A DNA stretch of 64,000 nt from an uncultured Eubacteriales bacterium (GTDB lineage Bacteria; Bacillota; Clostridia; Lachnospirales; Cellulosilyticaceae), in NCBI GenBank assembly GCA_900551325.1, contig URVM01000006.1, positions 81,744-145,743 of the forward strand, in the 5' to 3' direction. Every line of letters starts with the position of its first letter. Positions within the stretch are counted from its first letter, which is position 1. The notes under the pieces are model-generated. The model saw only the letters and a program-made list of their open reading frames with translations. It was not told where the DNA came from and made no database searches. A program made the position numbers and the translations under genes. Positions 158 to 14,191 of this stretch are shown here, one piece after another.

Positions 158-223
158 TAGCAAGGCTATAGGCTGATGCCTCTAGCCTAAGGTGCCAGTC
201 ACCTGACAATTTAGATACAATTT
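158..223 (+). repeat. REP-like cassette-boundary repeat copy 1 (full: module 1 hairpin + module 2)
   Basis: TAGCAA-GGCTATAGGC-TGAT-GCCTCTAGCC-TAAG-GTGCCAGTCAC-CTGACAATTTAGATACAATTT. 10-bp stem with one mismatch, then a GTGCC.GxCAC palindrome. Confidence 0.85.
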
Positions 224-301
224 GATTAGGGTATAAACAAGAAGAGGAATAAAGTAAGGTGTTCCTTTTTTCTTAAATAGAGTAATAAGGAGTATTAAGA
301 T

Positions 302-1213
302 ATGAAAGAACCAATATTAGTAATTATGGCAGCAGGAATGGGGAGTCGTTATGGTGGGCTTAAGCAAATAGATCCGATTACGGCAGAGGGAGAAATTATT
401 ATTGATTTTTCTATCTATGATGCCATCAAAGCAGGCTTTAAAAAGGTAGTCCTTATTATTAAAGGCGAGCATGAACAGGACTTTAGAGATGTAATAGGAA
501 ATAGATTATCAGATTACATAGAAGTAGAGTATGTACATCAAGAGTTACATATATTACCTGAAGGATATGCTGTGCCAGAAGGACGTACAAAACCTTGGGG
601 CACCACCCATGCTATTTGGTGTTGTAAAGATGTAGTAGATGCACCGTTTGTTGTACTGAATGCGGATGATTATTATGGTCCAGAGGCGTTTAAACATATG
701 TACAGACATCTTTGTGAGATACAGGAAAGTGGTCAATCTGAATATGCCATGGTGGGTTACATACTAAACAATACACTTACAGATCATGGTCATGTGACAC
801 GTGGAGTGTGTCAAATACAGAATGGTTACCTCACAGAGGTTGTAGAGCGTAAACAAATTGAGCGCCAAGATGGTGTAGTAAGATACTTTGATAAAGATAA
901 GTGGGTAGATGTATCACCAGATCGTCTTGTATCTATGAACATGTGGGCGTTGACACCAGATGTTTTTGCACAGTTAGAAGAGGATCTTGTGGATTTCTTA
1001 GAGCATGAAGTACCACTTGATGTGGAAAAGTCTGAATGTCTCATTCCAACAACTATTGGTGAGTTGATTGAAAAAGGTGAAGCAAGAGTTAAGATGTATG
1101 CTTCACATGATACATGGCAAGGGGTTACTTATAAGGAAGATAAGCCTGGTGTAATGGCAGCTCTTAAAGGTTTGAAAGAGGATGGGTTATATCCAGAGAG
1201 ATTGTGGGGGTAA
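302..1213 (+). CDS. sugar-phosphate nucleotidyltransferase-like protein (GT-A / NTP_transferase fold), paralogue 1 of 3
   Basis: Motifs MAAGMGSRYGGLKQ, KPWGTTHA and LNADDYYG. AAGGAG RBS upstream. Near-identical paralogues at 4594 and 10011. Confidence 0.85.
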   Translation: MKEPILVIMAAGMGSRYGGLKQIDPITAEGEIIIDFSIYDAIKAGFKKVVLIIKGEHEQDFRDVIGNRLSDYIEVEYVHQELHILPEGYAVPEGRTKPWGTTHAIWCCKDVVDAPFVVLNADDYYGPEAFKHMYRHLCEIQESGQSEYAMVGYILNNTLTDHGHVTRGVCQIQNGYLTEVVERKQIERQDGVVRYFDKDKWVDVSPDRLVSMNMWALTPDVFAQLEEDLVDFLEHEVPLDVEKSECLIPTTIGELIEKGEARVKMYASHDTWQGVTYKEDKPGVMAALKGLKEDGLYPERLWG

Positions 1214-1225
1214 GGAGGAGAATGG

Positions 1226-1516
1226 ATGCTTAGTAAGTTCTTTAATAATGAGCATGAAGAAGTAGATAGATCTATAGAACGTAAACTAAGAGATTTAAGT
1301 TTGCAGAATGATGTGGAGAGATTAAAAGCTATGCCATGTATTATTATTCATGAGGAAGAACATGATGCATATGAAATACGAGAAATTTCTTTATCAGATG
1401 TGGTTGGTTTTAATAGACCTACAATGAGAACTGAAAAAAATTGGTTTGAGTGCTTAGATTCTCTTACGAAAATGTATATATTTGATCGCTTTAAAGGCAT
1501 AGAAAATTTCCAATAG
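1226..1516 (+). CDS. hypothetical 96-aa cassette protein, operonic with nucleotidyltransferase copy 1
   Basis: GGAGGAG RBS 12 nt after the upstream stop. Its TAG stop is the first triplet of repeat copy 2. No family recognised. Confidence 0.55.
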   Translation: MLSKFFNNEHEEVDRSIERKLRDLSLQNDVERLKAMPCIIIHEEEHDAYEIREISLSDVVGFNRPTMRTEKNWFECLDSLTKMYIFDRFKGIENFQ

Positions 1517-1574
1517 CAAGTGGAGGCTGCACCTCCACTAAAGTGCCAGGCACCTGACAATTTAGACACAATTT
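1514..1574 (+). repeat. REP-like repeat copy 2 (type-b module 1: GTGGAGG-CTGCA-CCTCCAC)
   Basis: TAGCAAGTGGAGGCTGCACCTCCACTAAAGTGCCAGGCACCTGACAATTTAGACACAATTT. The stem sequence differs from copy 1, but pairing is preserved. Confidence 0.85.
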
Positions 1575-1618
1575 AAAGTCCTTATAGGTCAGTAGTATAG
1601 TTGACTTATGAGGACTTT
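1575..1618 (+). terminator. 17-bp-stem hairpin after repeat copy 2 (possible terminator)
   Basis: AAAGTCCTTATAGGTCA / TGACTTATGAGGACTTT arms with 2 mismatches. Only a weak T tract follows. Confidence 0.35.
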
Positions 1619-1856
1619 GTATTTAAGCATTTAAATAGTATATATTTCGTTATAATATTAAAATTTATAATATTTAGGTGGTTTATAAAAATATAAATAA
1701 TAATGATTTAATAGTAGGTATACAGACTAATTTACAAAATAAGTTTTAGATGATTTTACAGAAGAAGTACAAAATAAGGTGAAAATTAGTGTAGATAAGC
1801 GTAAAAAGAAGGATAAGGGCTTTGAAGAGATTCAATGTATTATTTATTTATAAAAT

Positions 1857-1884
1857 ATGTTAAAATATTATAATATTTTAACAT
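1857..1884. promoter_or_regulatory. 28-bp perfect palindrome (candidate operator) upstream of the 1900 ORF
   Basis: ATGTTAAAATATTA|TAATATTTTAACAT ends 5 nt before the GGGGGAG RBS. Confidence 0.5.
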
Positions 1885-1899
1885 TATAGGGGGAGAATT

Positions 1900-2550
1900 A
1901 TGGTGGAGGTATTAGAGTTTTTAGAAAGTATAGGTGGTGCATGGGAACAGGTGGGAGAAATACTAGAGATATTAATGGGAATTTATCTTTTAGTAGGTGG
2001 AATCCTTGCACTTGTACAGTGTTTCTTTGGGTATAAACTGTTAAAGTTATGGATAGCTTTAATAGGGGGAGTATTTGGTGGGAGTTTGGCTTTACTTATA
2101 GGATTGGTCCAAGGGGCAGGAGACAGAGCTTTATTTTACTTTATAGTAGGTGCAATAATTGGAGGATTTCTTGCATTTAAAGTTTATCTAATAGGTGTCT
2201 TTTTCATTGGTGTATTAGGTGGTATAATGACTGCTATTATTCTAGGAATTATGATGGAACTAGGTAGCGGAATAATAGGACTAGCATTGATACTAGGGAT
2301 AGTAGGTGGTATAGCTGTTCTTATCTTACAAAAACCGGCCATTATTATTGCAACTAGTTTAGGTACAGGTATGCAACTTGTAGGTATTATAGGCATGTTG
2401 TTGGATAATACAATGCTAGGTATACTTTTAGGTGGGATTATCACATGTATAGGTATGTGGTATCAGTTTACAAGCGGGAAGGCAAAGAAACCAGTAGTAA
2501 GTGAAGTAGCAGTTGCAGCACTCCCAGTTGTGGAGGTAGCAAGGCTATAG
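1900..2550 (+). CDS. glycine-rich multi-pass membrane protein (tentatively DUF4203/TMEM198-like)
   Basis: About 6 hydrophobic GxxxG-rich segments and a strong RBS. The last 4 codons (VARL*) are encoded by repeat copy 3. Confidence 0.6.
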   Translation: MVEVLEFLESIGGAWEQVGEILEILMGIYLLVGGILALVQCFFGYKLLKLWIALIGGVFGGSLALLIGLVQGAGDRALFYFIVGAIIGGFLAFKVYLIGVFFIGVLGGIMTAIILGIMMELGSGIIGLALILGIVGGIAVLILQKPAIIIATSLGTGMQLVGIIGMLLDNTMLGILLGGIITCIGMWYQFTSGKAKKPVVSEVAVAALPVVEVARL

Positions 2551-2601
2551 GCTGACACCTCTAGCCTAAGGTGCCAGGTACCTGACAACTTAGATATAAT
2601 T
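2537..2601 (+). repeat. REP-like repeat copy 3 (full)
   Basis: TAGCAAGGCTATAGGCTGACACCTCTAGCCTAAGGTGCCAGGTACCTGACAACTTAGATATAATT. Confidence 0.85.
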
Positions 2602-2654
2602 ATATAATAAAATTAATATAGTAGTAGTTTGTAACACAAAATAAGGAGAAGGGT

Positions 2655-4454
2655 ATGCCAAATATTTTTGAGGGATTAGAACAATTAGAAGATCAAGTGA
2701 TTAGAGAGTACATTGCCATGCTTGAGGTAGTTAATATGGGGAATGTATTTAAGGGGTATGGTACAACTGTTGCCAACAAGAGTGTTAAGTTGATTAATGG
2801 GATTGGGGATATCTTTGGAAAGAACTTTTGCTTGACTCCAAGAAAGGAAATGCGCCTTGAAGATTACATAGAAGAAAATAAGCATGCAATGGTGAGTTTA
2901 GATAGAAAGCAACTAGATGAGAGGCTGATACAGATACTGAGTGAAAAGAGTCAGAGTACATCTAAGACTAAGGATATGATTTCTGCAGAAGTCATTCAGG
3001 TAGTAGCTAATGACATGAAACTTGAAGAGAATATGACAATAGCGCAAAAGGCGGATAGCATTCATCGTCGTTATTTAGAAAAGATGCTCAGTGCCATGCA
3101 AGAACAGCTTAAAAAGCAAGATCTTTATGAAGCTAATGCAACCATCGTTGAAATAGAAAAAAATATCAACCAACTTAGTGACGCAGATAAAGAAGAGTTA
3201 AAAAAGGTATTGAATATTAATGAGCTTACAGGGAAAGAGATACGTAATGTATTGATGAAGACAGGAACACCTGCATTGATTATAGGTGCATTATCTGCTT
3301 CTGGATTTGGTGCTTTTATGGCACTTACAACAGTTATGCATGCCATATTCACTACTATATTAGGTATTACACTACCATTTGCAGTTTATACGAGTGCCAC
3401 CAGTACACTGTCCTTGTTACTTGGGCCAGCAGGGATTGCTCTTGTTGCAGGTACGGCTATTTGGCAGATTACACGAGGTAATAAAAAGCTAAGAAATGAG
3501 ATTATGGGACAAGTCATCTTTGGAGCGGTCAATGCATGTGGGGGAAGTTTTGTAGTAAAAGACAAAGAGCTCCCAAGTTATGAAGATAATGCGGAGATAT
3601 TAGAACTTATAGCAAAGAGGGATGAAGAATATAACAAATTAGTAGAGGAAAACACCTTGCTCCAAGATAAGGTGAGTTGTTTAGAACAAAAATATAAGAG
3701 GTCTCAAGAAAATATAAATACTTATAAGCAAAGAATAGTAAATGAAGTAGCTAGAAGAAATCGTTCGGAACATGAAATATCTAAGCTAAAAGATGAACAG
3801 GCGGTTATTAGTGCTCATTTTGAAAAGGCAGCTAAGGAATTGACCAGATTAGAAGCAGAGGTCAGCGCTAAAAAAGAGACTGATGAGGCAACTAAGTTAG
3901 AACTTGAAAAGGCAAAACTCTTAAATGCTTCTTATGTAAGAGATTTGAAGAAACTAGCGGATGATATTTGCTATCAAAATATGATCATTAAAGAAGCATC
4001 TAATGAAATTGAGGCAAAAACCAAGCTGATTGAAGACACAGAACTTAAGAAGTTAGAGCTTGAACAAGAGAATTTGCGGTATAAAGAAGAGATTACTTTA
4101 AAAGATCAAAAAATTGAAAAGACGCAAAAGATAAGAAGGAAAGAAATCACAGAAAAGTGGCATTTACACTACCCCAAATTTGAAATTACATCTGCAGCTA
4201 TAAGAGATGCAGTAGGTTTTTCTAAGAAGGAAGTGTGGGAAATCGAAAGGACTCTTATGGAATTACATTCTTTGAAAGACTTTAAGTCAGCAAGTATAGG
4301 GAAAATCAGAGAAAATGGTGTTGACTATGAACATATGCCATTCACCTTACCATCTGGTTTACCGGCAAGAGTACTTTATCGTATAACCAATGATTCGAAT
4401 AAGAAGGTAGTAATTGAAATGATCTATAAGCATAGTTCAAAATTCTATCAATAG
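2655..4454 (+). CDS. membrane-anchored coiled-coil protein with RelE/ParE-like C-terminal domain
   Basis: Hydrophobic helices at about aa 205-300 and a long heptad-rich, K/E-rich region at aa 310-500. The C-terminal ...LPARVLYRITNDSNKKVVIEMIYKHSSKFY resembles the RelE/ParE terminal strand pattern. Confidence 0.6.
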   Translation: MPNIFEGLEQLEDQVIREYIAMLEVVNMGNVFKGYGTTVANKSVKLINGIGDIFGKNFCLTPRKEMRLEDYIEENKHAMVSLDRKQLDERLIQILSEKSQSTSKTKDMISAEVIQVVANDMKLEENMTIAQKADSIHRRYLEKMLSAMQEQLKKQDLYEANATIVEIEKNINQLSDADKEELKKVLNINELTGKEIRNVLMKTGTPALIIGALSASGFGAFMALTTVMHAIFTTILGITLPFAVYTSATSTLSLLLGPAGIALVAGTAIWQITRGNKKLRNEIMGQVIFGAVNACGGSFVVKDKELPSYEDNAEILELIAKRDEEYNKLVEENTLLQDKVSCLEQKYKRSQENINTYKQRIVNEVARRNRSEHEISKLKDEQAVISAHFEKAAKELTRLEAEVSAKKETDEATKLELEKAKLLNASYVRDLKKLADDICYQNMIIKEASNEIEAKTKLIEDTELKKLELEQENLRYKEEITLKDQKIEKTQKIRRKEITEKWHLHYPKFEITSAAIRDAVGFSKKEVWEIERTLMELHSLKDFKSASIGKIRENGVDYEHMPFTLPSGLPARVLYRITNDSNKKVVIEMIYKHSSKFYQ

Positions 4455-4513
4455 AAGAAGGGCAGCTAACCTCCACTAAGGTGCCAGGCACTTGACAGCT
4501 TTAGACACAATCT
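4452..4513 (+). repeat. REP-like repeat copy 4 (degenerate module 1, intact module 2)
   Basis: TAGAAGAAGGGCAGCTAACCTCCACTAAGGTGCCAGGCACTTGACAGCTTTAGACACAATCT. Its TAG is the stop codon of the 2655 ORF. Confidence 0.8.
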
Positions 4514-4593
4514 GACTGTGGTATAGATAGATGAGAAGGGGAATGGTGCAAGGCATTCCTCTTTTTAAATAGTGTGATAGGAGAGTTTAGAAG

Positions 4594-5508
4594 ATGAAAG
4601 AACCAATATTAGTGATTATGGCAGCAGGTATGGGAAGTCGTTATGGTGGATTGAAACAGATAGACCCAATCACGGCAGAGGGAGAGATTATTATTGATTT
4701 CTCTATCTATGATGCCATTAAAGCAGGGTTTAAGAAAGTAGTATTAATCATCAAGGGTGAGCATGAGCAGGACTTTAGAGATGTGATTGGGAATAGATTA
4801 TCAGATTATATAGAAGTAGAATATGTGCATCAAGAGTTATATATGTTACCTGAGGGGTATGCTGTACCAGAAGGACGTACGAAACCTTGGGGTACGACTC
4901 ATGCCATTTGGTGTTGTAAAGATGTGGTGGATGCACCTTTTGTTGTACTCAATGCGGATGACTATTATGGACCAGAGGCATTTGAACATATGTACAAGCA
5001 TCTTTGTAAGATTCAAGAAAGTGGTAATTTGGAGTATGCTATGGTAGGTTACATATTAAATAATACATTGACAGACAACGGCCATGTAACACGTGGTGTG
5101 TGTCAAATAGAGAATGGTTACTTAGCAGAGATTGTAGAGCGTAAACAAATTGAGCGCCAAGATGGTGTGGTAAGATATTTTGATAAAGATAAGTGGGTAG
5201 ATGTATCACCAGATCGTCTTGTATCTATGAATATGTGGGCACTTACACCAGATGTTTTTGCACAGTTAGAAGAGGATCTTGTGGATTTCTTAGAGAGAGA
5301 AGTACCACTTGATGTGGAAAAGTCTGAATGTCTCATACCAACAACTATTGGTGAACTCATTGAAAAGGGTGAGGCAAAAGTAAAGGTGTATGCTTCACAT
5401 GATACATGGCAAGGGGTTACTTATAAGGAAGATAAGCCAGGTGTGAGGGCAGCACTTAAAGGTTTGAAAGAGGATGGATTATATCCTGAGAGGTTATGGG
5501 GAAATTAA
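4594..5508 (+). CDS. sugar-phosphate nucleotidyltransferase-like protein, paralogue 2 of 3
   Basis: Same motifs as 302..1213, with a few percent amino-acid differences and many synonymous differences. Confidence 0.85.
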   Translation: MKEPILVIMAAGMGSRYGGLKQIDPITAEGEIIIDFSIYDAIKAGFKKVVLIIKGEHEQDFRDVIGNRLSDYIEVEYVHQELYMLPEGYAVPEGRTKPWGTTHAIWCCKDVVDAPFVVLNADDYYGPEAFEHMYKHLCKIQESGNLEYAMVGYILNNTLTDNGHVTRGVCQIENGYLAEIVERKQIERQDGVVRYFDKDKWVDVSPDRLVSMNMWALTPDVFAQLEEDLVDFLEREVPLDVEKSECLIPTTIGELIEKGEAKVKVYASHDTWQGVTYKEDKPGVRAALKGLKEDGLYPERLWGN

Positions 5509-5539: not shown

Positions 5540-6646
5540 ATGAAAATATTATTATTAGATAATGCCATTGATTCACTTGAATGGGCAGTGCGTCATTTAG
5601 AATCATTTTTAGAAAAGGATCCAGAATATATTAATCCTGATGAGAGTACTACCTATCTTAAACAAGCCATACTATGTTTAAATAGTGCATTAGAGTTGTT
5701 TTTTAAGGCAAAAATTAGTGAGATAAATCCTATTTTAATATATGATAATCTATCAACTAAGGATATGCATAAAAGTGTTTTGGAGTATTACATTAAAAAA
5801 CAGAGTGGAGAGATAGATTGTCCACTTTATGACTATGTAATCGAAAATGCAGATCTTCATACTATTGAATACAGTAAATGTATAGAACTATTTTGTGCAT
5901 TGTATTCAGTTGGTGAGGGATATAAGAATAACTTCATAGAGATTAATCAAATCAGAAATGACTTAACGCATTTAGGAATTAAGAGCAAATCAGAATACTA
6001 CAAGTTGGCAGGGCAACTAGCAGAAATTTTGTTTTTCTTACAGTATAAGTTGTTACCTTCAGTGACATATGATGAAGCAAAAATCGAACAAATATATGAT
6101 GGTATGTTTTCGATTCAATACCCATTGGCATTGGTAGAAGATAGGATATGGGCAACGATTAATATGGATAAGATAGAATGGATTTGTGAGGGGTTAAAGA
6201 AGGTTTTTGATACTTCAGAGGTGCAAGACTATGCTGTTCAAAAGAAAGTATCTGTTGAATTTGATTTAACTTTAGATGCAGAGTTTATGTATTCAGTGAT
6301 TGGTATGGAATATAAAGAAATAAGAATAAATATTGCAGCAATCTACTCCTCGGGTTCTAAGGAAGCACTGATAATTTGTGATCATGAAAGTAAAGATGGG
6401 CCTATATACGGGGTTATCGAGTTAAATACTATGGATTTAAGTGATTTATCCAAAACTAAATTTTATTTATCACAAGATAAAGATGGAACAATTATTAAAG
6501 ATTATGATAAAGAAGGTTTGTTTTGGCGAAATGATGGTAAGTATAAGAAGAGTTTTGCATATGTACCATTTAGCAAGGCTAAGCAAGTTGAATTAATTAA
6601 AAAAATAATAGATAGTATAGAAAATATTGAGATTACTAATTTATAG
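5540..6646 (+). CDS. HEPN-domain protein (Rx4H motif RNDLTH) with uncharacterised C-terminal half
   Basis: Helical N-terminal ~170 aa with R139-N-D-L-T-H144 (nt 5954..5971), the HEPN RNase signature. It lies directly downstream of nucleotidyltransferase copy 2. Confidence 0.6.
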   Translation: MKILLLDNAIDSLEWAVRHLESFLEKDPEYINPDESTTYLKQAILCLNSALELFFKAKISEINPILIYDNLSTKDMHKSVLEYYIKKQSGEIDCPLYDYVIENADLHTIEYSKCIELFCALYSVGEGYKNNFIEINQIRNDLTHLGIKSKSEYYKLAGQLAEILFFLQYKLLPSVTYDEAKIEQIYDGMFSIQYPLALVEDRIWATINMDKIEWICEGLKKVFDTSEVQDYAVQKKVSVEFDLTLDAEFMYSVIGMEYKEIRINIAAIYSSGSKEALIICDHESKDGPIYGVIELNTMDLSDLSKTKFYLSQDKDGTIIKDYDKEGLFWRNDGKYKKSFAYVPFSKAKQVELIKKIIDSIENIEITNL

Positions 6647-8270: not shown

Positions 8271-8756
8271 GTGAAAAGTAAGAAGGGAGTATATATGGAG
8301 GGTAGTGTTGTATTTCATGGTAGTGCGGTAGTAGTTAATAAGCCACAGATAATAGTTAGTGGATTTTATAAAGATTTTGGATATGGTTTCTACTGTACTA
8401 GTATTGAGAAACAAGCCAAGAGGTGGGCTTTAGCTAAAAGGCCAGAGCATGTTGTCAATCAATACTGTTATAAAGAAGATAGCAGTCTGAAGGTATTAAA
8501 GTTCGAACATATGACTGATGAATGGCTAGACTTTGTTGTTAACTGTAGACGAGGTATTGCTCATACTTACGATATTGTAGAGGGGCCAATGGCGGATGAT
8601 ACAATTTGGAATTATATTGAGGATTATATCGAAGGAGAAATAACAAAAGAAGCTTTTTGGGTGTTAGTAAAATTTAAATATCCAACACACCAGATTGTAT
8701 ACTGTAGTGAAGCAGCTCTAAACACACTTGAATTTGATAGCAAGGCTGAAGGCTGA
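8271..8756 (+). CDS. DUF3990-like protein, duplicated copy with its C-terminus replaced by repeat-encoded DSKAEG*
   Basis: FHGS...DFGYGFYCT...QAKRWA signature. GTG start. The 3' end runs into repeat copy 8. Confidence 0.55.
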   Translation: MKSKKGVYMEGSVVFHGSAVVVNKPQIIVSGFYKDFGYGFYCTSIEKQAKRWALAKRPEHVVNQYCYKEDSSLKVLKFEHMTDEWLDFVVNCRRGIAHTYDIVEGPMADDTIWNYIEDYIEGEITKEAFWVLVKFKYPTHQIVYCSEAALNTLEFDSKAEG

Positions 8757-8803
8757 CGCCTCCAGCCTAAGGTGCCAGGCACGTGACAACTTAGACACAA
8801 TTT
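8738..8803 (+). repeat. REP-like repeat copy 8 (full; left edge is the duplication junction)
   Basis: TAGCAAGGCTGAAGGCTGACGCCTCCAGCCTAAGGTGCCAGGCACGTGACAACTTAGACACAATTT. Confidence 0.85.
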
Positions 8804-8917
8804 AATAGAGAGATAATTTTGAGCCACAGGTAATGTATGATTATTTGTGGTTATTTTTATGCAAGTTGGTTTAAAAAACAGGGAAACAGTGATACTATAA
8901 TAATATAAGGTAAAAAT

Positions 8918-9403
8918 GTGAAAAGTAAGAAGGGAGTATATATGGAGGGTAGTGTTGTATTTCATGGTAGTGCGGTAGTAGTTAATAAGCCACAGATAAT
9001 AGTTAGTGGATTTTATAAAGATTTTGGATATGGTTTCTACTGTACTAGTATTGAGAAACAAGCCAAGAGGTGGGCTTTAGCTAAAAGGCCAGAGCATGTT
9101 GTCAATCAATACTGTTATAAAGAAGATAGCAGTCTGAAGGTATTAAAGTTCGAACATATGACTGATGAATGGCTAGACTTTGTTGTTAACTGTAGACGAG
9201 GTATTGCTCATACTTACGATATTGTAGAGGGGCCAATGGCGGATGATACAATTTGGAATTATATTGAGGATTATATCGAAGGAGAAATAACAAAAGAAGC
9301 TTTTTGGGTGTTAGTAAAATTTAAATATCCAACACACCAGATTGTATACTGTAGTGAAGCAGCTCTAAACACACTTGAATTTGAGAGGAGTTACAAATTA
9401 TGA
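8918..9403 (+). CDS. DUF3990-like protein (intact copy)
   Basis: Same signature as 8271. ATGA overlap with the downstream DUF3791-like gene. Confidence 0.7.
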   Translation: MKSKKGVYMEGSVVFHGSAVVVNKPQIIVSGFYKDFGYGFYCTSIEKQAKRWALAKRPEHVVNQYCYKEDSSLKVLKFEHMTDEWLDFVVNCRRGIAHTYDIVEGPMADDTIWNYIEDYIEGEITKEAFWVLVKFKYPTHQIVYCSEAALNTLEFERSYKL

Positions 9404-9870
9404 GAAATATATTTTTCCCAGATGAGGAGCTTACTCAAGATGACTTGTACTTTATGTGTACAATGGTTGAACGTGTAGCAAGAAAGCTGAAGGTAAGGAA
9501 TAAAGAAGTTGTCAATGCACTAGGTTATGAAGAACTATGTAAAAAGATAAGTTTAGCTGATGTTTTGCATAGTGAGAATCCAGACAAAGTAGTGGCAGAT
9601 TGGATTGAGGAGTATAGCTTAGAAGAAGGTAAATTTGATATATTAGATGTTGATAAAACATTAGTGGAAAAAGCACCATCCCCACTTCAAATAGGGAAGG
9701 TATATAGACGCCTAATAGAATATACGTTACAAGAAGGAGAAGATTATATACAAGGTATGATTAGAGTATATAATTCACCTATATGTGAGATTATTGATAA
9801 TTATAATAGTAGTGCCTATTATGAGCCAACACCTGTTATTATAAAGGGTTATTATAATAATGGTTTTTAG
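9400..9870 (+). CDS. DUF3791-like protein (usual partner of DUF3990)
   Basis: The pattern ...FMCTMVERVARKL...VLHSENPDKVVADWIEEY is recalled as DUF3791-like. Translationally coupled to the upstream gene. Its TAG stop lies in repeat copy 9. Confidence 0.6.
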   Translation: MRNIFFPDEELTQDDLYFMCTMVERVARKLKVRNKEVVNALGYEELCKKISLADVLHSENPDKVVADWIEEYSLEEGKFDILDVDKTLVEKAPSPLQIGKVYRRLIEYTLQEGEDYIQGMIRVYNSPICEIIDNYNSSAYYEPTPVIIKGYYNNGF

Positions 9871-9929
9871 GCTGAAGGTTAACGCCTCCAGCCTAAGGTG
9901 CCAGACACTTGTCAATTTAGACACAATTT
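9868..9929 (+). repeat. REP-like repeat copy 9 (full, lacks the CAA spacer)
   Basis: TAGGCTGAAGGTTAACGCCTCCAGCCTAAGGTGCCAGACACTTGTCAATTTAGACACAATTT. Confidence 0.8.
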
Positions 9930-10010
9930 GATTATGGTATAGATAGATGAGAAGGGGAATGATGTAAGGCATTCCTCTTTTTAAATAGTGTGAATAGGAG
10001 AGTTTAGAAG

Positions 10011-10940
10011 ATGAAAGAACCAATATTAGTTGTTATGGCGGCAGGTATGGGTAGTCGATATGGGAGACTTAAGCAAATAGATCCGATTACGGTAGAGGGA
10101 GAGATTATTATTGATTTTTCTATCTATGATGCCATCAAAGCAGGCTTTAAAAAGGTAGTCCTTATCATTAAAGGTGAACATGAACAGGACTTTAGAGATG
10201 TAATAGGAAACAGATTATCAGATTACATAGAAGTTGAGTATGTACATCAGGAGTTACATATGTTACCTGAAGGATATGCTGTGCCTGAAGGACGTACAAA
10301 GCCTTGGGGGACTACACATGCTATTTGGTGTTGTAAGGATGTAGTAGATGCACCTTTTGTGGTACTCAATGCAGATGATTATTATGGTCCAGAGGCATTT
10401 GAGCATATGTACAAGCATCTTTGTGAGATACAGGAAAGTGGTCAATCAGAGTATGCCATGGTGGGTTACATATTAAACAACACATTGACAGATCATGGTC
10501 ATGTGACACGTGGTGTATGTCAAATAGAGAATGGCTACTTAGCAGAGATTGTAGAGCGTAAGCAAATTGAGCGCCAAGATGGTGTGGTAAGATATTTGGA
10601 TAAAAATAAGTGGGTAGAGGTCGCACCAGATCGTCTTGTATCTATGAACATGTGGGCGTTGACAGCAGATGTTTTTACACAGTTAGAAGAGGATCTTGTG
10701 GATTTCTTGGAGCATGAAGTACCGGTTGATGTGGAAAAGTCTGAATGTCTCATTCCAACAACGATTGGTGAACTGATTCAAAAAGGTAAGGCAAGAGTAA
10801 AGATGTATGCTTCTCATGATACATGGCAAGGGGTAACCTATAAGGAAGATAAGCCAGGGGTTATGGCAACTTTGAAGCAATTGAAAGATGAGGGTATATA
10901 TCCAGAGAGGTTGTGGGGGGGAAGCTTTGGATTATTATGA
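10011..10940 (+). CDS. sugar-phosphate nucleotidyltransferase-like protein, paralogue 3 of 3 (mosaic of copies 1 and 2)
   Basis: Same motifs as the other copies. The leader 9930..10010 is nearly identical to 4514..4593. The C-terminal tail is GGSFGLL*. Confidence 0.85.
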   Translation: MKEPILVVMAAGMGSRYGRLKQIDPITVEGEIIIDFSIYDAIKAGFKKVVLIIKGEHEQDFRDVIGNRLSDYIEVEYVHQELHMLPEGYAVPEGRTKPWGTTHAIWCCKDVVDAPFVVLNADDYYGPEAFEHMYKHLCEIQESGQSEYAMVGYILNNTLTDHGHVTRGVCQIENGYLAEIVERKQIERQDGVVRYLDKNKWVEVAPDRLVSMNMWALTADVFTQLEEDLVDFLEHEVPVDVEKSECLIPTTIGELIQKGKARVKMYASHDTWQGVTYKEDKPGVMATLKQLKDEGIYPERLWGGSFGLL

Positions 10941-11043: not shown

Positions 11044-11352
11044 ATGTGTAATACGAAATTTCTAATTGAGGTACAGTCATATAACAAGACAAAGTGCAAA
11101 CTATATAAGAATACAATAACTAATAAGTATTTTTTAGAGTACGACGGTGCTGTTTATGAGATAGATGATGAAAAGTTTGAATTGGTTGGGGATAATGGAA
11201 CCAATGTGAAAGCAAGTCAAAAGGAACCACTTGAGAGTTTACCAGTAGCACTTAAAGTGCTTTTTGAGATAAATCAATATGCAGTTATTATACATATCAA
11301 TACTCAAACAAAATCAATGATAGTAGATCAAGATTTTATTATTAAGAAGTAA
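11044..11352 (+). CDS. hypothetical 102-aa cassette protein
   Basis: GGGAG RBS. No family recognised. Followed immediately by Y-element copy 2. Confidence 0.45.
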   Translation: MCNTKFLIEVQSYNKTKCKLYKNTITNKYFLEYDGAVYEIDDEKFELVGDNGTNVKASQKEPLESLPVALKVLFEINQYAVIIHINTQTKSMIVDQDFIIKK

Positions 11353-11463: not shown

Positions 11464-11565
11464 CTATAAATGGAGGTGGCCAGATATGGATGATAAGAGC
11501 TTTATTAGGCTTGAGGTTGGATTGGGTATGAGTTTAGTTGGAATTATTGGTTTGGTAGCAAGGCT

Positions 11566-11620
11566 TAGGGCTAGCGCCCCTCGTCTAAGGGGACGGGCGC
11601 CTGATAATTAATCTAGATTT
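11566..11620 (+). repeat. REP-like repeat copy 10 (degenerate)
   Basis: TAGCAAGGCTTAGGGCTAGCGCCCCTCGTCTAAGGGGACGGGCGCCTGATAATTAATCTAGATTT. The TAGCAAGGCT start and the ...CTAAGG..G.C.GGCGCCTGA.AATT frame are retained. Confidence 0.55.
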
Positions 11621-11798
11621 AGTAGGACCAAATAAAATTAGAGTTGATTTTACTACTATATAGGAAAGAAACAGCCTATTGAAAATAGCTATTGTGAATG
11701 GTAAATTTATTAAATAATACTGTATAACTAATGTTAGTATGTCCCTATCTAGGATAAACAACATGACTAGGGGGATTCCAGGAAAGAGGAATTTAAAA

Positions 11799-13400
11799 AT
11801 GAAAAAAAGAATGCTTAAAGGGATTACTTTTGGCTTGGCAAGCACTTTGCTCGTAGGCTGTGGATCAGGCTCAGTTAACTTATCTAACAACACTAGCAAA
11901 CCATCTGTAAACGCTGCTCAGAGCGAAAATACGCCTGAGTACAATTCGAAAATAAACAACACAATGAATCACACTGTAGCAGATACGGAAATAAAGTTTT
12001 CTAGAGATCCTGTATACTCCCAAGAAGTAAACAAGGTAATACGACCAGGGTATTTTGTAGAAAGTATCAGTTTGGTTGAGGAGATTACACCAACAAATGA
12101 AGGTATTAGCATAAAGCCTGACGAGGGAGAAGTTTTCTTAGTTGCAAAAATGATTTATACCAATGAATCCGAAGAGGATGTTGTCTTAGATGGACACGGC
12201 ATGGATTATGAACTAAACTACACTGAATTTAATGTAACTACTGGAATGTCGGGCAGTTCTATATGGTACGACCCTTCTACCATAAAAACAAGAGCCCACA
12301 TAGAAACAAAAGGCAACGATGGCTTTGAGGAAACAGGGAAAAGCGTTACAGTTGCTCCAAATGAAGAACGAGTGGTACATATTAGCGTCGAAATTGACGA
12401 CGAGTACCGCAAGATAGAACTTGATGATAGACGTAAAGAGAAAGAACTATATGTAGATTTTTCCTTAGGCAACTATATGCAAATAGATACCGTTTCAGTA
12501 GAATTTTTAAATGACTTTTCAGAGGAAATTGCAAAGCAAGTATTCCCACTATCAGAACTTGGATTCTCGACAATGCTTGAAAATCCTCCTGATACATATA
12601 TAGACTACATATATACGGGGGAACTTGAAGGGAAGAATCATGAAGGAAAAGACTCTGTTTTCCAATACAATCACCCATTGAATCCCATGGAAGGAGAAGT
12701 TATCTATGTGGACAATGATGGAAATAGATATGTATTAAGGCCATCTGATAAAATGTTAAAACCGGAGTGCAAGGAAGAATTATACAAAGTTTACTTAGAT
12801 AGCGACAATTGGCAATCTTTCATAAGCAAGCCTAAAAGTATGACTGATCCATATTCTGAAACGTTAAAGTACATCAACCTACACGAAAGATCAGATGGAG
12901 TAGACCGCTTCGATGTAGAGAACATGAAGTTAAACATTATGAGAGAATTCAAGTATGACATTCCATCACTAGAACCTAATGGCGATGAAATAATTACCGA
13001 GGTCAACGCTCAAACCAAAACCATATATGAACATTATACAAATTTGATAGAAGTATTTAACAAATACCTTCCGCAAAGAGGTGATAAAAATGTTCAATCT
13101 AACTTCGAGAAAGAGTCAAATGAGATAATTAAACAATTAAAGACTGACGTAGCAAACTACAAGTCAGATGCAACGTACATTACTCCATATATCAACCAAA
13201 AAGCTATAAACTCTGGCAAAACGGACATTGAGATAGCATACTTACAACAACAGATGATTAAGTACTTTGATAAAGACTCTTGTGATTTAGGTGCTTGCTC
13301 TATTGGAAATGTTGCTGTCATTATGAGCAAAATTGAGAGTTGGTACATTCCACCAGAATTAACAGTAGAGAACTGCACACTTATTCCTAAAGATAAATAG
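11799..13400 (+). CDS. lipoprotein, function unknown
   Basis: Signal peptide with lipobox LLVGC. I placed the start at MKKRMLKG (ATG 11799), which follows an AAGAGGA RBS. Confidence 0.65.
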   Translation: MKKRMLKGITFGLASTLLVGCGSGSVNLSNNTSKPSVNAAQSENTPEYNSKINNTMNHTVADTEIKFSRDPVYSQEVNKVIRPGYFVESISLVEEITPTNEGISIKPDEGEVFLVAKMIYTNESEEDVVLDGHGMDYELNYTEFNVTTGMSGSSIWYDPSTIKTRAHIETKGNDGFEETGKSVTVAPNEERVVHISVEIDDEYRKIELDDRRKEKELYVDFSLGNYMQIDTVSVEFLNDFSEEIAKQVFPLSELGFSTMLENPPDTYIDYIYTGELEGKNHEGKDSVFQYNHPLNPMEGEVIYVDNDGNRYVLRPSDKMLKPECKEELYKVYLDSDNWQSFISKPKSMTDPYSETLKYINLHERSDGVDRFDVENMKLNIMREFKYDIPSLEPNGDEIITEVNAQTKTIYEHYTNLIEVFNKYLPQRGDKNVQSNFEKESNEIIKQLKTDVANYKSDATYITPYINQKAINSGKTDIEIAYLQQQMIKYFDKDSCDLGACSIGNVAVIMSKIESWYIPPELTVENCTLIPKDK

Positions 13401-13430
13401 GAAGAGACAGGAATACGTCAATACAGAGCT

Positions 13431-13466
13431 ACAGCAAGGCTATAGGCTGATGCCTCTAGCCTAAGG
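13431..13466 (+). repeat. REP-like repeat copy 11a (module 1 only)
   Basis: ACAGCAAGGCTATAGGCTGATGCCTCTAGCCTAAGG, followed directly by copy 11b. Confidence 0.75.
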
Positions 13467-13467
13467 G

Positions 13468-13533
13468 TAGCAAGGCTCAAGGCTAGCACCCCAAGCCTAG
13501 GGGGACAGGCACCTGACAATTTACAAACAATTT
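13468..13533 (+). repeat. REP-like repeat copy 11b (full, divergent module 1)
   Basis: TAGCAAGGCTCAAGGCTAGCACCCCAAGCCTAGGGGGACAGGCACCTGACAATTTACAAACAATTT. Confidence 0.75.
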
Positions 13534-13559
13534 GATAAAGGTTTAAGAATGGTTGATGT

Positions 13560-13820
13560 GTGATACCAGAAGTATTTACACAGTTAGAAGAGGATCTTGT
13601 GGATTTCTTAGAGCATGAAGTGCCACTGGATGTGGAAAAGTTTGAGTGTCTCATTCCAACAACTATTGGTGAGCTCATTGAAAAGGATGAGGCGAAAGTA
13701 AAGGTATATGCTTCTCATGATACATGGCAAGGGGTTACTTATAAGGAAGATAAGCCAGGTGTCATGGCAGCTCTTAAAAATTTGAAAGAGGGTGGGTTAT
13801 ATCCTGAGAGATTGTGGTGA
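13560..13820 (+). pseudogene. 5'-truncated nucleotidyltransferase copy (last 86 codons only)
   Basis: Aligns with aa ~218-303 of the full copies (VFTQLEEDLVDFLEHEVPLDVEK...LYPERLW*). Homology begins about 27 nt after repeat 11b. Confidence 0.8.
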
Positions 13821-13840
13821 TAGAGGAGAGTGAAAATAAA

Positions 13841-14137
13841 ATGTCTGTAAATCAATTAAAAGTTGTTGTAAGTGTATTGAAGGAAGTTTCAGAAGGAAAT
13901 ATACCTACTAGTAAAGACTATGGGATAGAAGATAGAATGTTCTATGATATTATTGATGCTATGCAGGATGAAGGATTAATAAAAGGTGCACGTTTTAGTA
14001 GAGGTGGAGTTGGAAATCCTATATTGATTGCAATGCTGGACAGCGTTAAAATTACGATTAAAGGAATGGAGTATCTTAATCAAAATTCAACCCTTGTTAA
14101 AACGTATAAAGGGTTAAAAGTAGCAAGTGGAAGCTAA
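13841..14137 (+). CDS. YjcQ-family protein
   Basis: ...VLKEVSEGNIPTSKDYGIE...DIIDAMQDEGLIKGARFSRGG...ITIKGMEYLNQNS matches my recollection of YjcQ (PF09639). The last 5 codons (ASGS*) lie in repeat copy 12. Confidence 0.65.
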   Translation: MSVNQLKVVVSVLKEVSEGNIPTSKDYGIEDRMFYDIIDAMQDEGLIKGARFSRGGVGNPILIAMLDSVKITIKGMEYLNQNSTLVKTYKGLKVASGS

Positions 14138-14191
14138 CGCCTCCACTAAGATGCCAGGCACCTGACAATTCCTGACAATTTAGATGCAATT
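14121..14191 (+). repeat. REP-like repeat copy 12 (type-b, with an internal 10-bp tandem duplication CCTGACAATT x2)
   Basis: TAGCAAGTGGAAGCTAACGCCTCCACTAAGATGCCAGGCACCTGACAATTCCTGACAATTTAGATGCAATT. Confidence 0.8.

What the first reader, a model, noticed from the sequence alone, without database searches (positions are those of the whole stretch)
158..14191. Three full-length mosaic paralogues plus a 3' fragment of one nucleotidyltransferase gene, each heading a different downstream gene
**Seen - conservation.** 302..1213, 4594..5508 and 10011..10940 encode ~300-aa GT-A nucleotidyltransferase-like proteins. They differ at only a few percent of residues. Many third-codon positions differ, so each copy looks maintained rather than decaying.

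**Seen - mosaic variation.**
- Copy 3 shares FEHMYKHLC and QIENGYLAEIVERK with copy 2.
- Copy 3 shares EIQESGQSEYAM, TDHGHV, LEHEVP and ARVKMYAS with copy 1.
- Copies 2 and 3 share about 80 nt of leader that begins immediately after a REP-like repeat.

**Seen - truncated fourth copy.** 13560..13820 holds only the last 86 codons and starts about 27 nt after repeat 11b.

**Seen - where similarity ends.** In all four copies, similarity stops right after the ...ERLW codon.
- The tails are G*, GN*, GGSFGLL* and *.
- The next gene differs each time: a 96-aa ORF, a HEPN protein, a 102-aa ORF, and YjcQ.

**Inference - two readings.**
- The gene may serve as a portable homology anchor that lets downstream partners be swapped. 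This would be analogous to orphan-module arrays in Rhs/CDI loci, or to tandem accretion of elements that target a gene's 3' end and regenerate it.
- Alternatively, the nucleotidyltransferase plus a variable partner may be a two-gene functional module. The copy next to the HEPN protein recalls nucleotidyltransferase/HEPN toxin-antitoxin logic, although this is not a minimal pol-beta-type NTase.
Basis: partly seen in the sequence, partly recalled or inferred. Interest (0 to 1): 0.75.

Follow-up and report, generated by a model that had tools for sequence, protein, structure and literature searches.

The report
Stacked relic copies of capsule-locus boundary gene
Three intact copies and one stub of a sugar-nucleotidyltransferase gene are stacked downstream of a capsule-type polysaccharide locus, each with different accessory or defence-type genes behind it; they most likely record repeated DNA imports joined at a short repeat, not a toxin-antitoxin or other two-gene system.

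Summary
There are three full-length copies (302-1213, 4594-5508, 10011-10940) and an 86-codon 3' fragment (13560-13820). The copies are 87-91% identical in nucleotides, with dN/dS 0.06-0.10 and a statistically supported mosaic. The same array occurs in at least three independent metagenome assemblies.

The gene is normally single-copy and is the last gene of a hypervariable capsule/exopolysaccharide locus. What lies downstream of it also differs between genomes.

The copies are as divergent at synonymous sites (dS 0.39-0.70) as housekeeping genes of different species (0.43-0.62). The cargo between them is unrelated. This fits imported alleles stacked one behind another, not local duplication.

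A bipartite REP-like repeat occurs 15 times, always on the + strand and only within 1-18 kb. A RAYT-type transposase gene lies at 17363-17923. In two relatives the gene's stop codon abuts the repeat's internal junction (TAAG|G).

The partner genes are independent accessory or defence-type genes. The 368-aa HEPN-like protein occurs elsewhere without the nucleotidyltransferase.

Verdict: tandem accretion at a capsule-locus boundary, a new variant of a known kind. The two-gene-module reading is not supported. An integron-like, RAYT-driven cassette array remains a low-probability possibility.

The parts
1..32 (+). 3' end of the last biosynthetic gene (hexapeptide acetyltransferase) of the upstream polysaccharide locus
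   Evidence: Window 1 = L091 9700. The L091 gene 9189-9731 (PF00132) ends at window 32, and 9.7 kb of CPS genes lie upstream in L091.
25..159 (+). ~135-nt non-coding 'box', repeated at 11356-11466; both copies sit between a stop codon and a full REP
   Evidence: Self-BLAST gives 83-84% identity; family D11.
153..241 (+). Full REP-like repeat (H1 hairpin | H2 hairpin + tail) upstream of copy 1
   Evidence: nhmmer 8e-26. ssDNA fold z=-2.9. Junction table.
302..1213 (+). Nucleotidyltransferase copy 1: the copy adjacent to the polysaccharide locus, taken to be the current functional boundary gene
   Evidence: PF00483, 32.3 bits. PDB 3pnn 2e-82. No deviations at 101 family-conserved columns.
1226..1516 (+). 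96-aa ORF of unknown function. Its RBS follows the copy-1 stop by 2 nt and its stop codon is the TAG of the next repeat.
   Evidence: No family hits.
1514..1585 (+). REP, variant B (alternative H1' hairpin + H2)
   Evidence: nhmmer 5e-12. Fold z=-2.8.
1900..2550 (+). 216-aa multi-pass membrane protein (cargo)
   Evidence: Weak PF13886 match, 1.5e-5.
2532..2621 (+). Full REP
   Evidence: nhmmer 3e-24.
2655..4454 (+). 599-aa coiled-coil/TM protein (cargo); weak JukA-like match
   Evidence: PADLOC JukA 7.6e-6.
4461..4531 (+). REP variant B upstream of copy 2
   Evidence: nhmmer 1.6e-9; sequence.
4594..5508 (+). Nucleotidyltransferase copy 2 (intact)
   Evidence: No deviation at conserved columns.
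5540..6646 (+). 368-aa HEPN-like protein (cargo): an independent accessory gene
   Evidence: Invariant RNxxxH. AF2 pLDDT 88.5. Weak HepT/MtlR fold matches. Stands alone in other genomes.
6769..7104 (+). 111-aa ORF of unknown function (cargo)
   Evidence: No family hits.
7130..7211 (+). REP variant B
   Evidence: nhmmer 1.5e-15.
7290..8002 (-). ParE-like toxin / Phd-YefM antitoxin pair (cargo, opposite strand)
   Evidence: PF05016 0.004; PF02604 1e-9.
8044..8176 (+). H2-only REP half (8044-8083) followed by a full REP (8089-8176)
8090..9387 (+). Two tandem copies of a 647-bp unit (REP + most of DUF3990), polymorphic between strains. The join lies at the exact 5' end of the REP.
   Evidence: 99.7% identity. 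Join TTTGA|TAGCAAGG. Absent in L100 and L102, present in L101.
8918..9870 (+). DUF3990 + 156-aa pair = PADLOC candidate defence pair PDC-M10A/B (cargo)
   Evidence: PDC-M10A 1.1e-76. PDC-M10B 5.6e-76.
9858..9947 (+). Full REP upstream of copy 3
   Evidence: nhmmer 1.3e-23.
10011..10940 (+). Nucleotidyltransferase copy 3 (intact ORF). It carries G19R at a Gly conserved in >=95% of 115 homologues and has a 7-aa tail.
11044..11352 (+). 102-aa ORF of unknown function (cargo)
   Evidence: No family hits.
11551..11641 (+). Full REP (divergent), preceded by the second 'box' copy at 11356-11466
   Evidence: nhmmer 8e-21.
11739..13400 (+). 553-aa predicted lipoprotein (cargo)
   Evidence: ORF. The LLVGC lipobox was read from the sequence. 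No family hits.
13433..13553 (+). H1-only REP half (13433-13466; 34/34 identical to the H1 upstream of copy 1) joined at CTAAGG| to a full REP (13466-13553)
13560..13820 (+). Nucleotidyltransferase 3' relic (last 86 codons), joined almost directly to the REP. It has 6 private amino-acid states.
13814..14137 (+). YjcQ-family protein (cargo); its stop codon lies inside the next REP
   Evidence: PF09639 6e-17. phrog_3675.
14120..14207 (+). REP variant B
   Evidence: nhmmer 5e-11.
14451..14651 (+). Cold-shock protein gene. It also lies a few kb downstream of the nucleotidyltransferase in relatives L085 and L087.
   Evidence: PF00313. csp lies downstream of the nucleotidyltransferase in L085 and L087.
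14720..14757 (+). H2-only REP half between csp and dprA
14750..17358 (-). dprA and comM (competence/ssDNA-processing genes)
   Evidence: PF02481 9e-62; PF01078 2e-86.
17363..17923 (-). RAYT-type Y1 (HUH) transposase gene, 4 nt upstream of comM
   Evidence: PF01797 4e-16. NF047646 REP_Tyr_transpos 76.9 bits against a cut-off of 80. Homologues are named RayT. The same RAYT-comM order occurs in L103.
17979..18025 (+). H2-only REP half upstream of the RAYT gene; the last copy in the window
   Evidence: A homologous half sits upstream of the RAYT in L103.

Best explanation
The nucleotidyltransferase is the conserved last gene of a hypervariable capsule/exopolysaccharide locus, and the segment between it and core genes is an insertion hotspot.

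I infer that the array was built by successive horizontal imports. Each import brought a foreign allele of the boundary unit [REP - leader - nucleotidyltransferase] together with whatever accessory genes lay behind it in the donor. The right-hand join fell either in the ~90-nt REP that precedes the resident copy, which left that copy intact (copies 2 and 3), or inside the resident gene, which left an 86-codon stub (copy 4). The resident copy was therefore pushed downstream instead of being replaced.

On this view copy 1 is the current working gene, copies 2-4 are progressively older relics, and the 'partners' are unrelated passenger genes: a toxin-antitoxin pair, a PDC-M10 pair, a HEPN-like protein and several unknowns. 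Similarity stops at ERLW because the ORF ends there and because the stop codon coincides with a recurrent REP junction (TAAG|GTGCC) where different DNA is joined.

Shown: copy structure, divergence, context in relatives, repeat anatomy. Inferred: order of events and the recombination mechanism.
For: 1. Context. In every close relative the gene is single-copy and terminal in a Wzx/glycosyltransferase/UDP-Glc-dehydrogenase or NeuB locus whose content differs each time (L081, L082, L085, L087, L088, L089). L091 shows such a locus directly upstream of copy 1.

2. Variable downstream region. The genes after it are a GGDEF protein, IS21, an SLH protein or a 438-aa ORF. Known flanks reappear further on: csp in L085 and L087, and beta-eliminating lyase/SNF in L089, which equals window 20337-23208 at 89%.

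3. Divergence. dS is 0.39-0.70 between copies, against 0.43-0.62 for housekeeping genes between the window and L089. In individual thirds of the gene, orthologues from other taxa are as close as the paralogues: Zhenhengia vs c2 86.3%, L082 vs c2/c3 88%.

4. Cargo between copies is unrelated.

5. Independent second case. L088 has a frameshifted copy, a 438-aa ORF, then a decayed 43-codon relic with two stops directly upstream of a homologue of the 368-aa gene (83% nucleotide identity to window 5376-6621), then a REP and the csp upstream region.

6. REP at the joins. Unit homology starts in the REP. The REP also precedes the single copy in L089, and an H2 half follows its stop codon as TAAG|GT in L082 and L089. 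In copy 1, ORF96 plus H1' sits between TAAGG and H2. The stub abuts a REP.

7. Relic gradient. Private residues in the last 86 codons number 0, 2, 5 and 6 for c1 to c4, and c3 carries G19R.

8. Precedent. The N. meningitidis cps island is flanked by regions D/D' carrying an intact galE1 and a truncated galE2 (PMC5349592).
Against: - No donor genome was found in which copy 2 or copy 3, with its present cargo, is the single boundary copy.
- All seven or so conspecific contigs carry the same array, so no intermediate states were seen.
- Copies 2 and 3 are fully intact. Over the full length their private substitutions (1 and 5) lie within or below the range of ordinary orthologues (3-37). Selection to keep them cannot be excluded.
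- The three copies are closer to each other overall (87-91%) than to any sampled relative (77-84%). This could also reflect old paralogy with gene conversion.
- Whether the upstream locus was actually replaced at each step is not shown.
Confidence: 0.55

Rival explanations
1. RAYT-driven cassette array. The neighbouring Y1/HUH transposase cuts and rejoins single-stranded DNA at the bipartite REP (H1|H2). REP-bounded cassettes, including the nucleotidyltransferase unit, are then captured one after another in a single orientation. This would be an integron-like platform that uses an HUH enzyme.
For: - All 15 REP copies are on the + strand and all lie within 18 kb next to the RAYT gene. There are none in the other 46 kb of the window or in the 9.7 kb upstream locus.
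- Nearly every gene or operon is bounded by a REP, and several ORFs end inside one.
- Three breakpoints recur: the H1 5' end, the CTAAG|G junction and the H2 tail. There are H1-only and H2-only halves.
- An H1-only half is 34/34 identical to a distant copy.
- A strain-polymorphic duplication is joined exactly at the REP 5' end.
- An empty site (L082, L089) can be compared with an occupied one (copy 1 + ORF96) at TAAGG|H2.
- An H2 half is conserved upstream of the RAYT in a relative with 74% protein identity.
Against: [quoted passage not shown]
- REPs sitting in 3' UTRs behind co-oriented genes would give the same picture.
- No cargo gene was found elsewhere with the same REP ends. Homologues of the 368-aa gene outside this locus have none.
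- Hairpin covariation is weak, and only 4 of 9 copies fold significantly better than shuffles.
- The RAYT score is just below the NCBIfam cut-off.
Confidence: 0.13
2. Old in-place tandem paralogues kept by selection (dosage or different sugar specificities), with gene conversion producing the mosaic and later insertions filling the gaps.
For: - Three intact ORFs with dN/dS 0.06-0.10.
- A mosaic consistent with conversion.
- The copies are closer to each other than to any sampled relative overall.
- c1 and c2 have no deviations at conserved columns.
Against: - The gene is single-copy in all sampled relatives from other species.
- The cargo between copies is unrelated, and it would have to be inserted independently after each copy.
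- There is a truncated fourth copy, and c3 carries G19R.
- The gene is dispensable in relatives: cut by IS21 in L085/L086 (seen in 7 samples) and frameshifted in L088.
- In some segments orthologues are as close as the paralogues.
Confidence: 0.12
3. Each nucleotidyltransferase plus its downstream gene is a two-gene functional module (TA-like or defence-like, for example NTase/HEPN).
For: - Tight spacing and a shared strand; the ORF96 RBS starts 2 nt after the copy-1 stop.
- The 368-aa partner has an invariant RNxxxH motif and weak HepT-like fold matches.
- The link between a nucleotidyltransferase 3' end and the 368-aa gene recurs in L088.
Against: - The enzyme is a PF00483 sugar-nucleotidyltransferase, not a pol-beta MNT.
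- It has no PADLOC hit.
- Its downstream neighbour differs in every relative.
- Homologues of the 368-aa gene occur alone beside GmrSD/Abi_2, with no nucleotidyltransferase (tblastn negative).
- In L088 the linked nucleotidyltransferase piece is a dead relic with stop codons.
- In L101 the 368-aa gene is split while copy 2 is intact.
Confidence: 0.04
4. Assembly artefact (mis-joined or duplicated contigs).
For: - One related scaffold (L092) is an obvious palindromic mis-assembly.
- Contigs of relatives L082-L084 break in the REP just after the gene.
Against: - The copies differ by 9-13%, so they are not collapsed or duplicated reads.
- The whole array is reproduced at 99.9-100% identity in contigs from three samples and different assemblies, with only a 647-bp duplication polymorphism.
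Confidence: 0.01

Closest known systems
Duplicated flank of the Neisseria meningitidis capsule island (regions D/D': intact galE1 and truncated galE2)
   Same: A sugar-nucleotide metabolism gene at the edge of a horizontally exchanged capsule locus is present as an intact copy plus a truncated remnant. It is read as a scar of acquisition (PMC5349592, abstract seen).
   Different: Here there are three intact copies plus a stub in direct tandem. Accessory and defence-type cargo lies between them, and a REP sits at the joins. The host is a gut Clostridia relative of Zhenhengia/Niameybacter.
Conserved boundary genes of enterobacterial K/O-antigen loci (galF, gnd, ugd), which serve as recombination anchors for locus exchange (own knowledge; cf. 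PMC13043062, listed but not read)
   Same: A GalU/GalF-like nucleotidyltransferase marks the edge of a hypervariable polysaccharide locus and shows elevated, mosaic diversity.
   Different: Those anchors are normally replaced, not stacked. Here the old copies are retained downstream together with cargo.
REPtron: a RAYT (TnpA-REP) gene flanked by its cognate REP sequences
   Same: A single RAYT-type Y1 transposase gene has a cluster of imperfect-palindrome repeats next to it. Some copies carry a 5' GTAG, as in the GT[AG]G guide (PMC6006769).
   Different: The REPs are all in one orientation, bipartite, spread over 18 kb and interleaved with genes. The RAYT appears to sit in an operon with comM and dprA. 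Genome-wide dispersal could not be checked.
Rhs/CDI orphan toxin-immunity arrays
   Same: Repeated pieces of a conserved gene lie downstream of the main copy, each followed by different genes. The repeats could mediate deletion or rearrangement.
   Different: The variable parts are not in-frame C-terminal domains and no immunity pairs are tied to them. The repeats are whole genes with tails of 0-7 aa.
Integron cassette arrays
   Same: Co-oriented, mostly promoterless genes are each bounded by a structured repeat. There is a TA pair on the opposite strand, and ORFs run into the repeat.
   Different: No IntI-type recombinase was found among the 25 ORFs scanned between 1 and 21.8 kb. The repeat is not attC-like by any test run here, and Rfam gave no hit. 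The nearby enzyme is an HUH transposase.

Membership tests
Sugar-phosphate nucleotidyltransferase (Pfam PF00483, GT-A-like fold) | Profile match above the curated cut-off over the catalytic domain | tested here: met
   PF00483 scores 32.3 bits against a cut-off of 21.2, over residues 7-225. PDB 3pnn matches at 2.3e-82 over the full length, and a G1P uridylyltransferase (2ux8) at 4e-5.
Sugar-phosphate nucleotidyltransferase (Pfam PF00483, GT-A-like fold) | Conserved N-terminal glycine-rich nucleotide-binding motif (here AAGMGSRYGGLKQ) | tested here: met
   The motif is intact in c1 and c2. c3 has G19R at a column conserved in >=95% of 115 homologues.
Sugar-phosphate nucleotidyltransferase (Pfam PF00483, GT-A-like fold) | NTP + sugar-1-phosphate transferase activity and its substrate | not testable with these tools
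   No characterised close homologue is available; 3pnn is deposited as 'conserved domain protein'.
HEPN/MNT type II toxin-antitoxin | A minimal pol-beta-fold nucleotidyltransferase (MNT) as the antitoxin | tested here: not met
   The 303-aa protein matches PF00483 and GalU/RmlA-type models only. It has no MNT or PADLOC hit.
HEPN/MNT type II toxin-antitoxin | HEPN domain with an Rx4-6H motif in the partner | tested here: inconclusive
   R139, N140 and H144 are invariant in 29 homologues. The AF2 model has pLDDT 88.5. Foldseek gives no significant hit; the best TM-scores normalised to the target (0.45-0.55) are to HepT, SO_3166 and MtlR. There is no profile hit.
HEPN/MNT type II toxin-antitoxin | Conserved adjacency of the two genes across genomes | tested here: not met
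   Homologues of the 368-aa gene in L093-L099 have no nucleotidyltransferase nearby (tblastn negative).
REP / RAYT system (REPtron) | RAYT-type Y1 HUH transposase | tested here: inconclusive
   NF047646 gives 1.4e-21 and 76.9 bits, just under the cut-off of 80. The IS200 model scores only 16 bits. Homologues are annotated RayT.
REP / RAYT system (REPtron) | Multiple short imperfect palindromes next to the RAYT gene, specific to it | tested here: met
   There are 15 copies within 18 kb, one of them 56 nt from the gene. A homologous half lies upstream of the RAYT in L103. 77% of cells are paired, against 23-41% in the slid controls.
REP / RAYT system (REPtron) | 5' GT[AG]G guide tetranucleotide before the hairpin | tested here: inconclusive
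   GTAGCAAGG occurs in about 5 of 11 H1-bearing copies. The others have ATAG, CTAG or TTAG.
REP / RAYT system (REPtron) | Genome-wide dispersal in intergenic regions | not testable with these tools
   No complete genome of this species was available. The family is absent from 80 more distant loci and from JGI metagenomes.
Integron | IntI tyrosine recombinase with attI/Pc at the head of the array | tested here: not met
   No recombinase domain was found among the 25 ORFs scanned between 1 and 21.8 kb. L091 shows biosynthetic genes upstream.
Rhs/CDI orphan module array | Orphans are 3' core fragments fused in frame to variable toxin domains plus immunity genes | tested here: not met
   The copies are complete genes with tails of 0-7 aa, and the variable genes have their own starts.
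Integrative element targeting and regenerating a gene's 3' end | An integrase and direct att repeats made of the target's 3' end | tested here: not met
   There is no integrase. Three of the four repeats are full-length genes that include 5' leader and REP.
Polysaccharide-locus boundary gene with relic duplication | Terminal position in a variable Wzx-type locus in relatives, single copy, variable content on both sides | tested here: met
   Shown by L081, L082, L085, L087, L088, L089 and L091. The association holds only for the close subfamily: 78 of 80 more distant loci lack the CPS markers tested.

The most novel reading that the evidence does not exclude
The 18-kb segment is a gene-capture array run by the adjacent RAYT. 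The HUH transposase, encoded in what looks like an operon with the ssDNA-handling competence genes comM and dprA, cleaves and rejoins single strands at the bipartite REP (H1|H2, junction CTAAG|G). It would install REP-bounded cassettes, including the nucleotidyltransferase unit and defence genes, in one orientation. This would be a functional analogue of an integron in Clostridia, possibly fed by transforming DNA.
Probability: 0.12. Interest if true: 0.85.

Novelty: new variant of a known kind. Interest (0 to 1): 0.45.

Why it matters
The array would record how surface-polysaccharide loci and the neighbouring defence hotspot turn over in poorly studied gut Clostridia. It shows that the conserved boundary gene can be stacked rather than replaced, leaving a readable series of past imports.

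It also cautions against two readings. Low dN/dS between co-resident copies need not mean that each copy is maintained. Adjacency need not mean a functional pair.

The REP/RAYT cluster at the joins is the more valuable lead. If the RAYT really makes these junctions, that would extend RAYT biology from moving small repeats to assembling gene arrays.

Tried and rejected
- **Rfam.** The gathering-threshold scan of the whole window and the E-value scan of 1-18.2 kb found no RNA family for the repeat or the 'box'. The only hit was a near-threshold cspA thermoregulator. There are no tRNA or tmRNA genes, so this is not a tRNA-type att site.
- **REP as promoter.** Consensus promoter matches are not enriched (73 found, 70.5 expected). 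REP-internal matches are weak (GTGCCA-18-TACAAT), so no promoter role is claimed.
- **REP elsewhere.** The REP HMM found nothing in the 80 more distant nucleotidyltransferase loci. Two JGI metagenome scans gave 0 hits and then 15 chance hits to the 20-nt tail only, with no REP and no nucleotidyltransferase. That collection seems to lack this clade.
- **Polysaccharide context in distant relatives.** tblastn of CPS markers against the 80 distant loci hit only 2, so the context applies to the close subfamily only.
- **Relaxed selection.** Full-length private substitutions in c1-c3 (2, 1 and 5) lie within or below the range of ordinary orthologues (3-37), so no decay can be claimed beyond c3 G19R and the stub.
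- **HEPN assignment.** Structure search left it weak, with no hit at E<0.1.
- **Consensus folding.** RNAalifold did not recover the H1 hairpin. A hand-drawn structure shows pairing but little covariation.

Full report
**1. The observation**

- The ORF list and translations confirm three full-length copies (302-1213, 4594-5508, 10011-10940) and an 86-codon 3' fragment (13560-13820). The tails are G*, GN*, GGSFGLL* and *.
- The full copies align without gaps. They are 86.9-90.6% identical in nucleotides and 91.4-95.0% in amino acids.
- Nei-Gojobori estimates give dS 0.39-0.70 and dN/dS 0.057-0.100. Pairs with the fragment give dN/dS about 0.2. The full copies give 0.12-0.22 over the same 86 codons, so the fragment is not clearly more relaxed.
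- The distribution of 'odd-one-out' sites is clustered: runs test p=0.004, max-chi2 p=0.006, breakpoint near nt 504. c1 is closest to c3 in the first third (93%) and closest to c2 in the last third (92%).
- The duplicated unit is larger than the ORF. Homology starts inside an upstream repeat (c1 163 = c3 9869; c1 187 = c2 4476) and ends at or just after ERLW.
- The array is not an assembly artefact. Contigs from three metagenome samples carry it at 99.9-100% identity and differ only by a 647-bp duplication. One related scaffold, L092, is a palindromic mis-assembly and was ignored.

**2. What the gene is**

- It matches Pfam NTP_transferase above threshold and GalU/RmlA/GlmU-type NCBIfam models weakly.
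- It has a full-length solved homologue of unknown function, 3pnn (2e-82).
- It is a GT-A-like sugar-nucleotidyltransferase. It is unrelated to the pol-beta-type MNT of HEPN/MNT systems.

**3. The context from relatives**

- The closest named genomes are Zhenhengia yiwuensis (90% amino-acid identity), Holtiella tumoricola and Niameybacter massiliensis.
- In every close relative with enough flank, the gene is single-copy and is the last gene of a polysaccharide locus. Those loci contain a Wzx flippase and glycosyltransferases plus other biosynthetic genes (e.g. Wzy, UDP-glucose dehydrogenase, NeuB/CMP-sugar genes), and the content differs each time (L081, L082, L085, L087, L088, L089).
- L091, the same strain type as the window, shows such a locus ending 270 nt upstream of copy 1. 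Window bases 1-32 are the end of its last gene.
- The downstream side also varies: a GGDEF protein, IS21, an SLH protein or a 438-aa ORF. Familiar flanks then reappear: csp in L085 and L087, and beta-eliminating lyase/SNF in L089, which equals window 20337-23208 at 89%.
- The gene therefore sits on the boundary between a hypervariable surface-polysaccharide locus and an insertion hotspot.
- It is dispensable in some strains. IS21 cuts it in L085/L086 (seen in 7 samples), and it is frameshifted in L088.
- The polysaccharide association holds only for this close subfamily. It was not found in 78 of 80 loci with 45-54% identity.

**4. Origin of the extra copies**

- Synonymous divergence between the copies (0.39-0.70) equals that of housekeeping genes between the window and the L089 organism (0.43-0.62). 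Nucleotidyltransferase alleles of different taxa are about twice as far apart (0.83-1.5).
- In single thirds of the gene, orthologues from other taxa are as close to a given copy as its co-resident paralogues are.
- The DNA between copies is unrelated, whereas a local tandem duplication would repeat it.
- A second, independent case exists in L088. It has a frameshifted copy, a 438-aa ORF, then a decayed 43-codon 3' relic with two stop codons directly upstream of a homologue of the window's 368-aa gene (83% nucleotide identity to window 5376-6621), then a repeat and the csp upstream region.
- I infer that foreign alleles of the boundary unit arrived with their own downstream passengers and were stacked in front of the resident copy.
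- A gradient of private residues in the shared 86 codons (0, 2, 5 and 6 for c1 to c4), and G19R in c3 at a Gly conserved in >=95% of 115 homologues, fit copy 1 as the working gene and the others as older relics.
- Over the full length, however, c2 and c3 are not measurably degraded.
- Low dN/dS therefore mainly reflects divergence while each allele was functional in its own lineage.
- The meningococcal capsule island, flanked by an intact galE1 and a truncated galE2, is a published precedent for a duplicated sugar-nucleotide gene as a scar of capsule-locus acquisition (PMC5349592).

**5. The repeat at the joins**

- A ~90-nt element occurs 15 times. All copies are on the + strand and all lie between 153 and 18025. 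None occurs in the remaining 46 kb of the window or in the upstream locus.
- It is bipartite.
  - H1 is an imperfect hairpin, (G)TAGCAAGGCTATAGGC-TGAT-GCCTCTAGCCTAAG.
  - H2 is a short hairpin plus tail, GTGCCAGGCACCTGACAATTTAGACACAATTT.
  - There is a variant H1', and there are H1-only and H2-only halves.
- 77% of cells pair, against 23-41% in the slid controls. Covariation is slight, and only 4 of 9 copies fold significantly better than shuffles.
- Next to the last copy lies a 186-aa Y1 transposase. Its best match is the NCBIfam REP-associated tyrosine transposase model (76.9 bits against a cut-off of 80), not IS200, and its homologues are annotated RayT. This is a REPtron-like arrangement (PMC6006769).
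- The repeat is present at the boundary gene in relatives.
  - A full copy precedes the gene in L089.
  - An H2 half follows its stop codon directly as TAAG|GT in L082 and L089.
  - In copy 1 the same TAAGG is followed by ORF96 and an H1' ending CTAAAG, and only then by H2. Copy 1 therefore looks like an occupied version of the L082/L089 site.
- The stub copy abuts a repeat. Just upstream of it, an H1-only half that is 34/34 identical to the one before copy 1 is joined at CTAAGG| to a full repeat.
- The strain-polymorphic 647-bp duplication is joined exactly at the repeat's 5' end.
- These points explain why similarity stops at ERLW. The ORF ends there, and the stop codon coincides with a recurrent breakpoint of the repeat.
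- Whether the joins were made by homologous or illegitimate recombination at the repeats, or by the RAYT itself, cannot be decided here. I favour recombination at the repeats. The RAYT-cassette model is kept as the most novel reading not excluded.

**6. The partners**

- The 368-aa protein has no profile hit.
  - It has an invariant RNxxxH motif and a confident model.
  - Its best fold resemblances, though not significant, are to HepT/MtlR HEPN folds.
  - Its homologues occur alone beside GmrSD and Abi_2 genes, with no nucleotidyltransferase or repeat. It is split in one conspecific assembly.
- DUF3990 plus the 156-aa protein form the PADLOC candidate pair PDC-M10A/B.
- There is a ParE/Phd pair on the opposite strand and a YjcQ protein.
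- The 599-aa protein has a weak JukA-like match.
- The remaining ORFs have no hits.
- This is a small accessory or defence island, not a set of cognate partners for the nucleotidyltransferase.

**7. Verdict**

- The finding is real, and the 'tandem accretion / homology anchor' reading is partly right.
- The two-gene-module reading fails.
- The arrangement is a new variant of a known kind: relic duplication of a capsule-locus boundary gene, here multiplied and interleaved with cargo inside a REPtron-like repeat cluster.
- Interest is moderate. The open question worth pursuing is whether the RAYT builds the array.

Noticed in passing
window 14750-18025: The RAYT gene (17363-17923, - strand) lies 4 nt upstream of comM and then dprA, apparently in one operon. 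The same RAYT-then-comM order, with an H2-type repeat half upstream, occurs in a relative whose RAYT is 74% identical (L103). An ssDNA-cutting HUH enzyme apparently co-transcribed with natural-transformation genes is unusual.
   Followed up: partly
window 8090-9387: A 647-bp tandem duplication (REP + most of DUF3990) creates a truncated DUF3990 copy. It is present in the window and in L101 but absent in L100/L091 and L102. The join is TTTGA|TAGCAAGG, exactly at the 5' end of the repeat.
   Followed up: yes
window 25-159 and 11356-11466: A ~135-nt non-coding 'box' (83-84% identical) sits both times between a stop codon and a full REP. It has no Rfam match and was not found in relatives.
   Followed up: partly
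window 13433-13466 vs 159-192: An H1-only repeat half is 34/34 identical to the H1 upstream of copy 1, although repeat copies usually differ by 10-30%. This suggests recent copying of a repeat module.
   Followed up: partly
window 1514, 2550, 8756, 9870, 14137; L082 10914, L085 13985, L089 4522: Many ORFs end inside the repeat. Their stop codon is the TAG of TAGCAAGG or the TAA of CTAAGG. H2-only halves in relatives follow a TAA stop directly as TAAG|GT.
   Followed up: partly
window 14370-14702 and about 56680-57040: The csp gene's region matches the Rfam cspA thermoregulator just below the gathering score (76.7 vs 78 bits). A second csp paralogue with a similar upstream region lies near 56.7-57.0 kb.
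   Followed up: no
L085/L086 10747-13210; L087 8045-10705: IS21 elements (istA/istB) are inserted within the nucleotidyltransferase (L085/L086, seen in 7 samples) or just downstream of it (L087) in Zhenhengia-like strains. This shows that the gene is dispensable and that the site is insertion-prone.
   Followed up: partly
L101 3618-4726: In one conspecific assembly the 368-aa HEPN-like gene is called as 277 + 71 aa (disrupted), while the adjacent nucleotidyltransferase copy 2 is intact.
   Followed up: no
L092: This scaffold is a perfect inverted duplication around position ~11570 (window 1-1884 in both orientations). It is an assembly chimera in a public metagenome scaffold.
   Followed up: yes
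window 242-301, 4532-4593, 9948-10010; 8175-8205, 8822-8852: Each repeat is followed by a weak hairpin plus a T-run (terminator-like). Before the nucleotidyltransferase this leaves only ~30 nt to the start codon. The gene may therefore depend on read-through from upstream, or on a promoter overlapping the repeat tail.
   Followed up: partly
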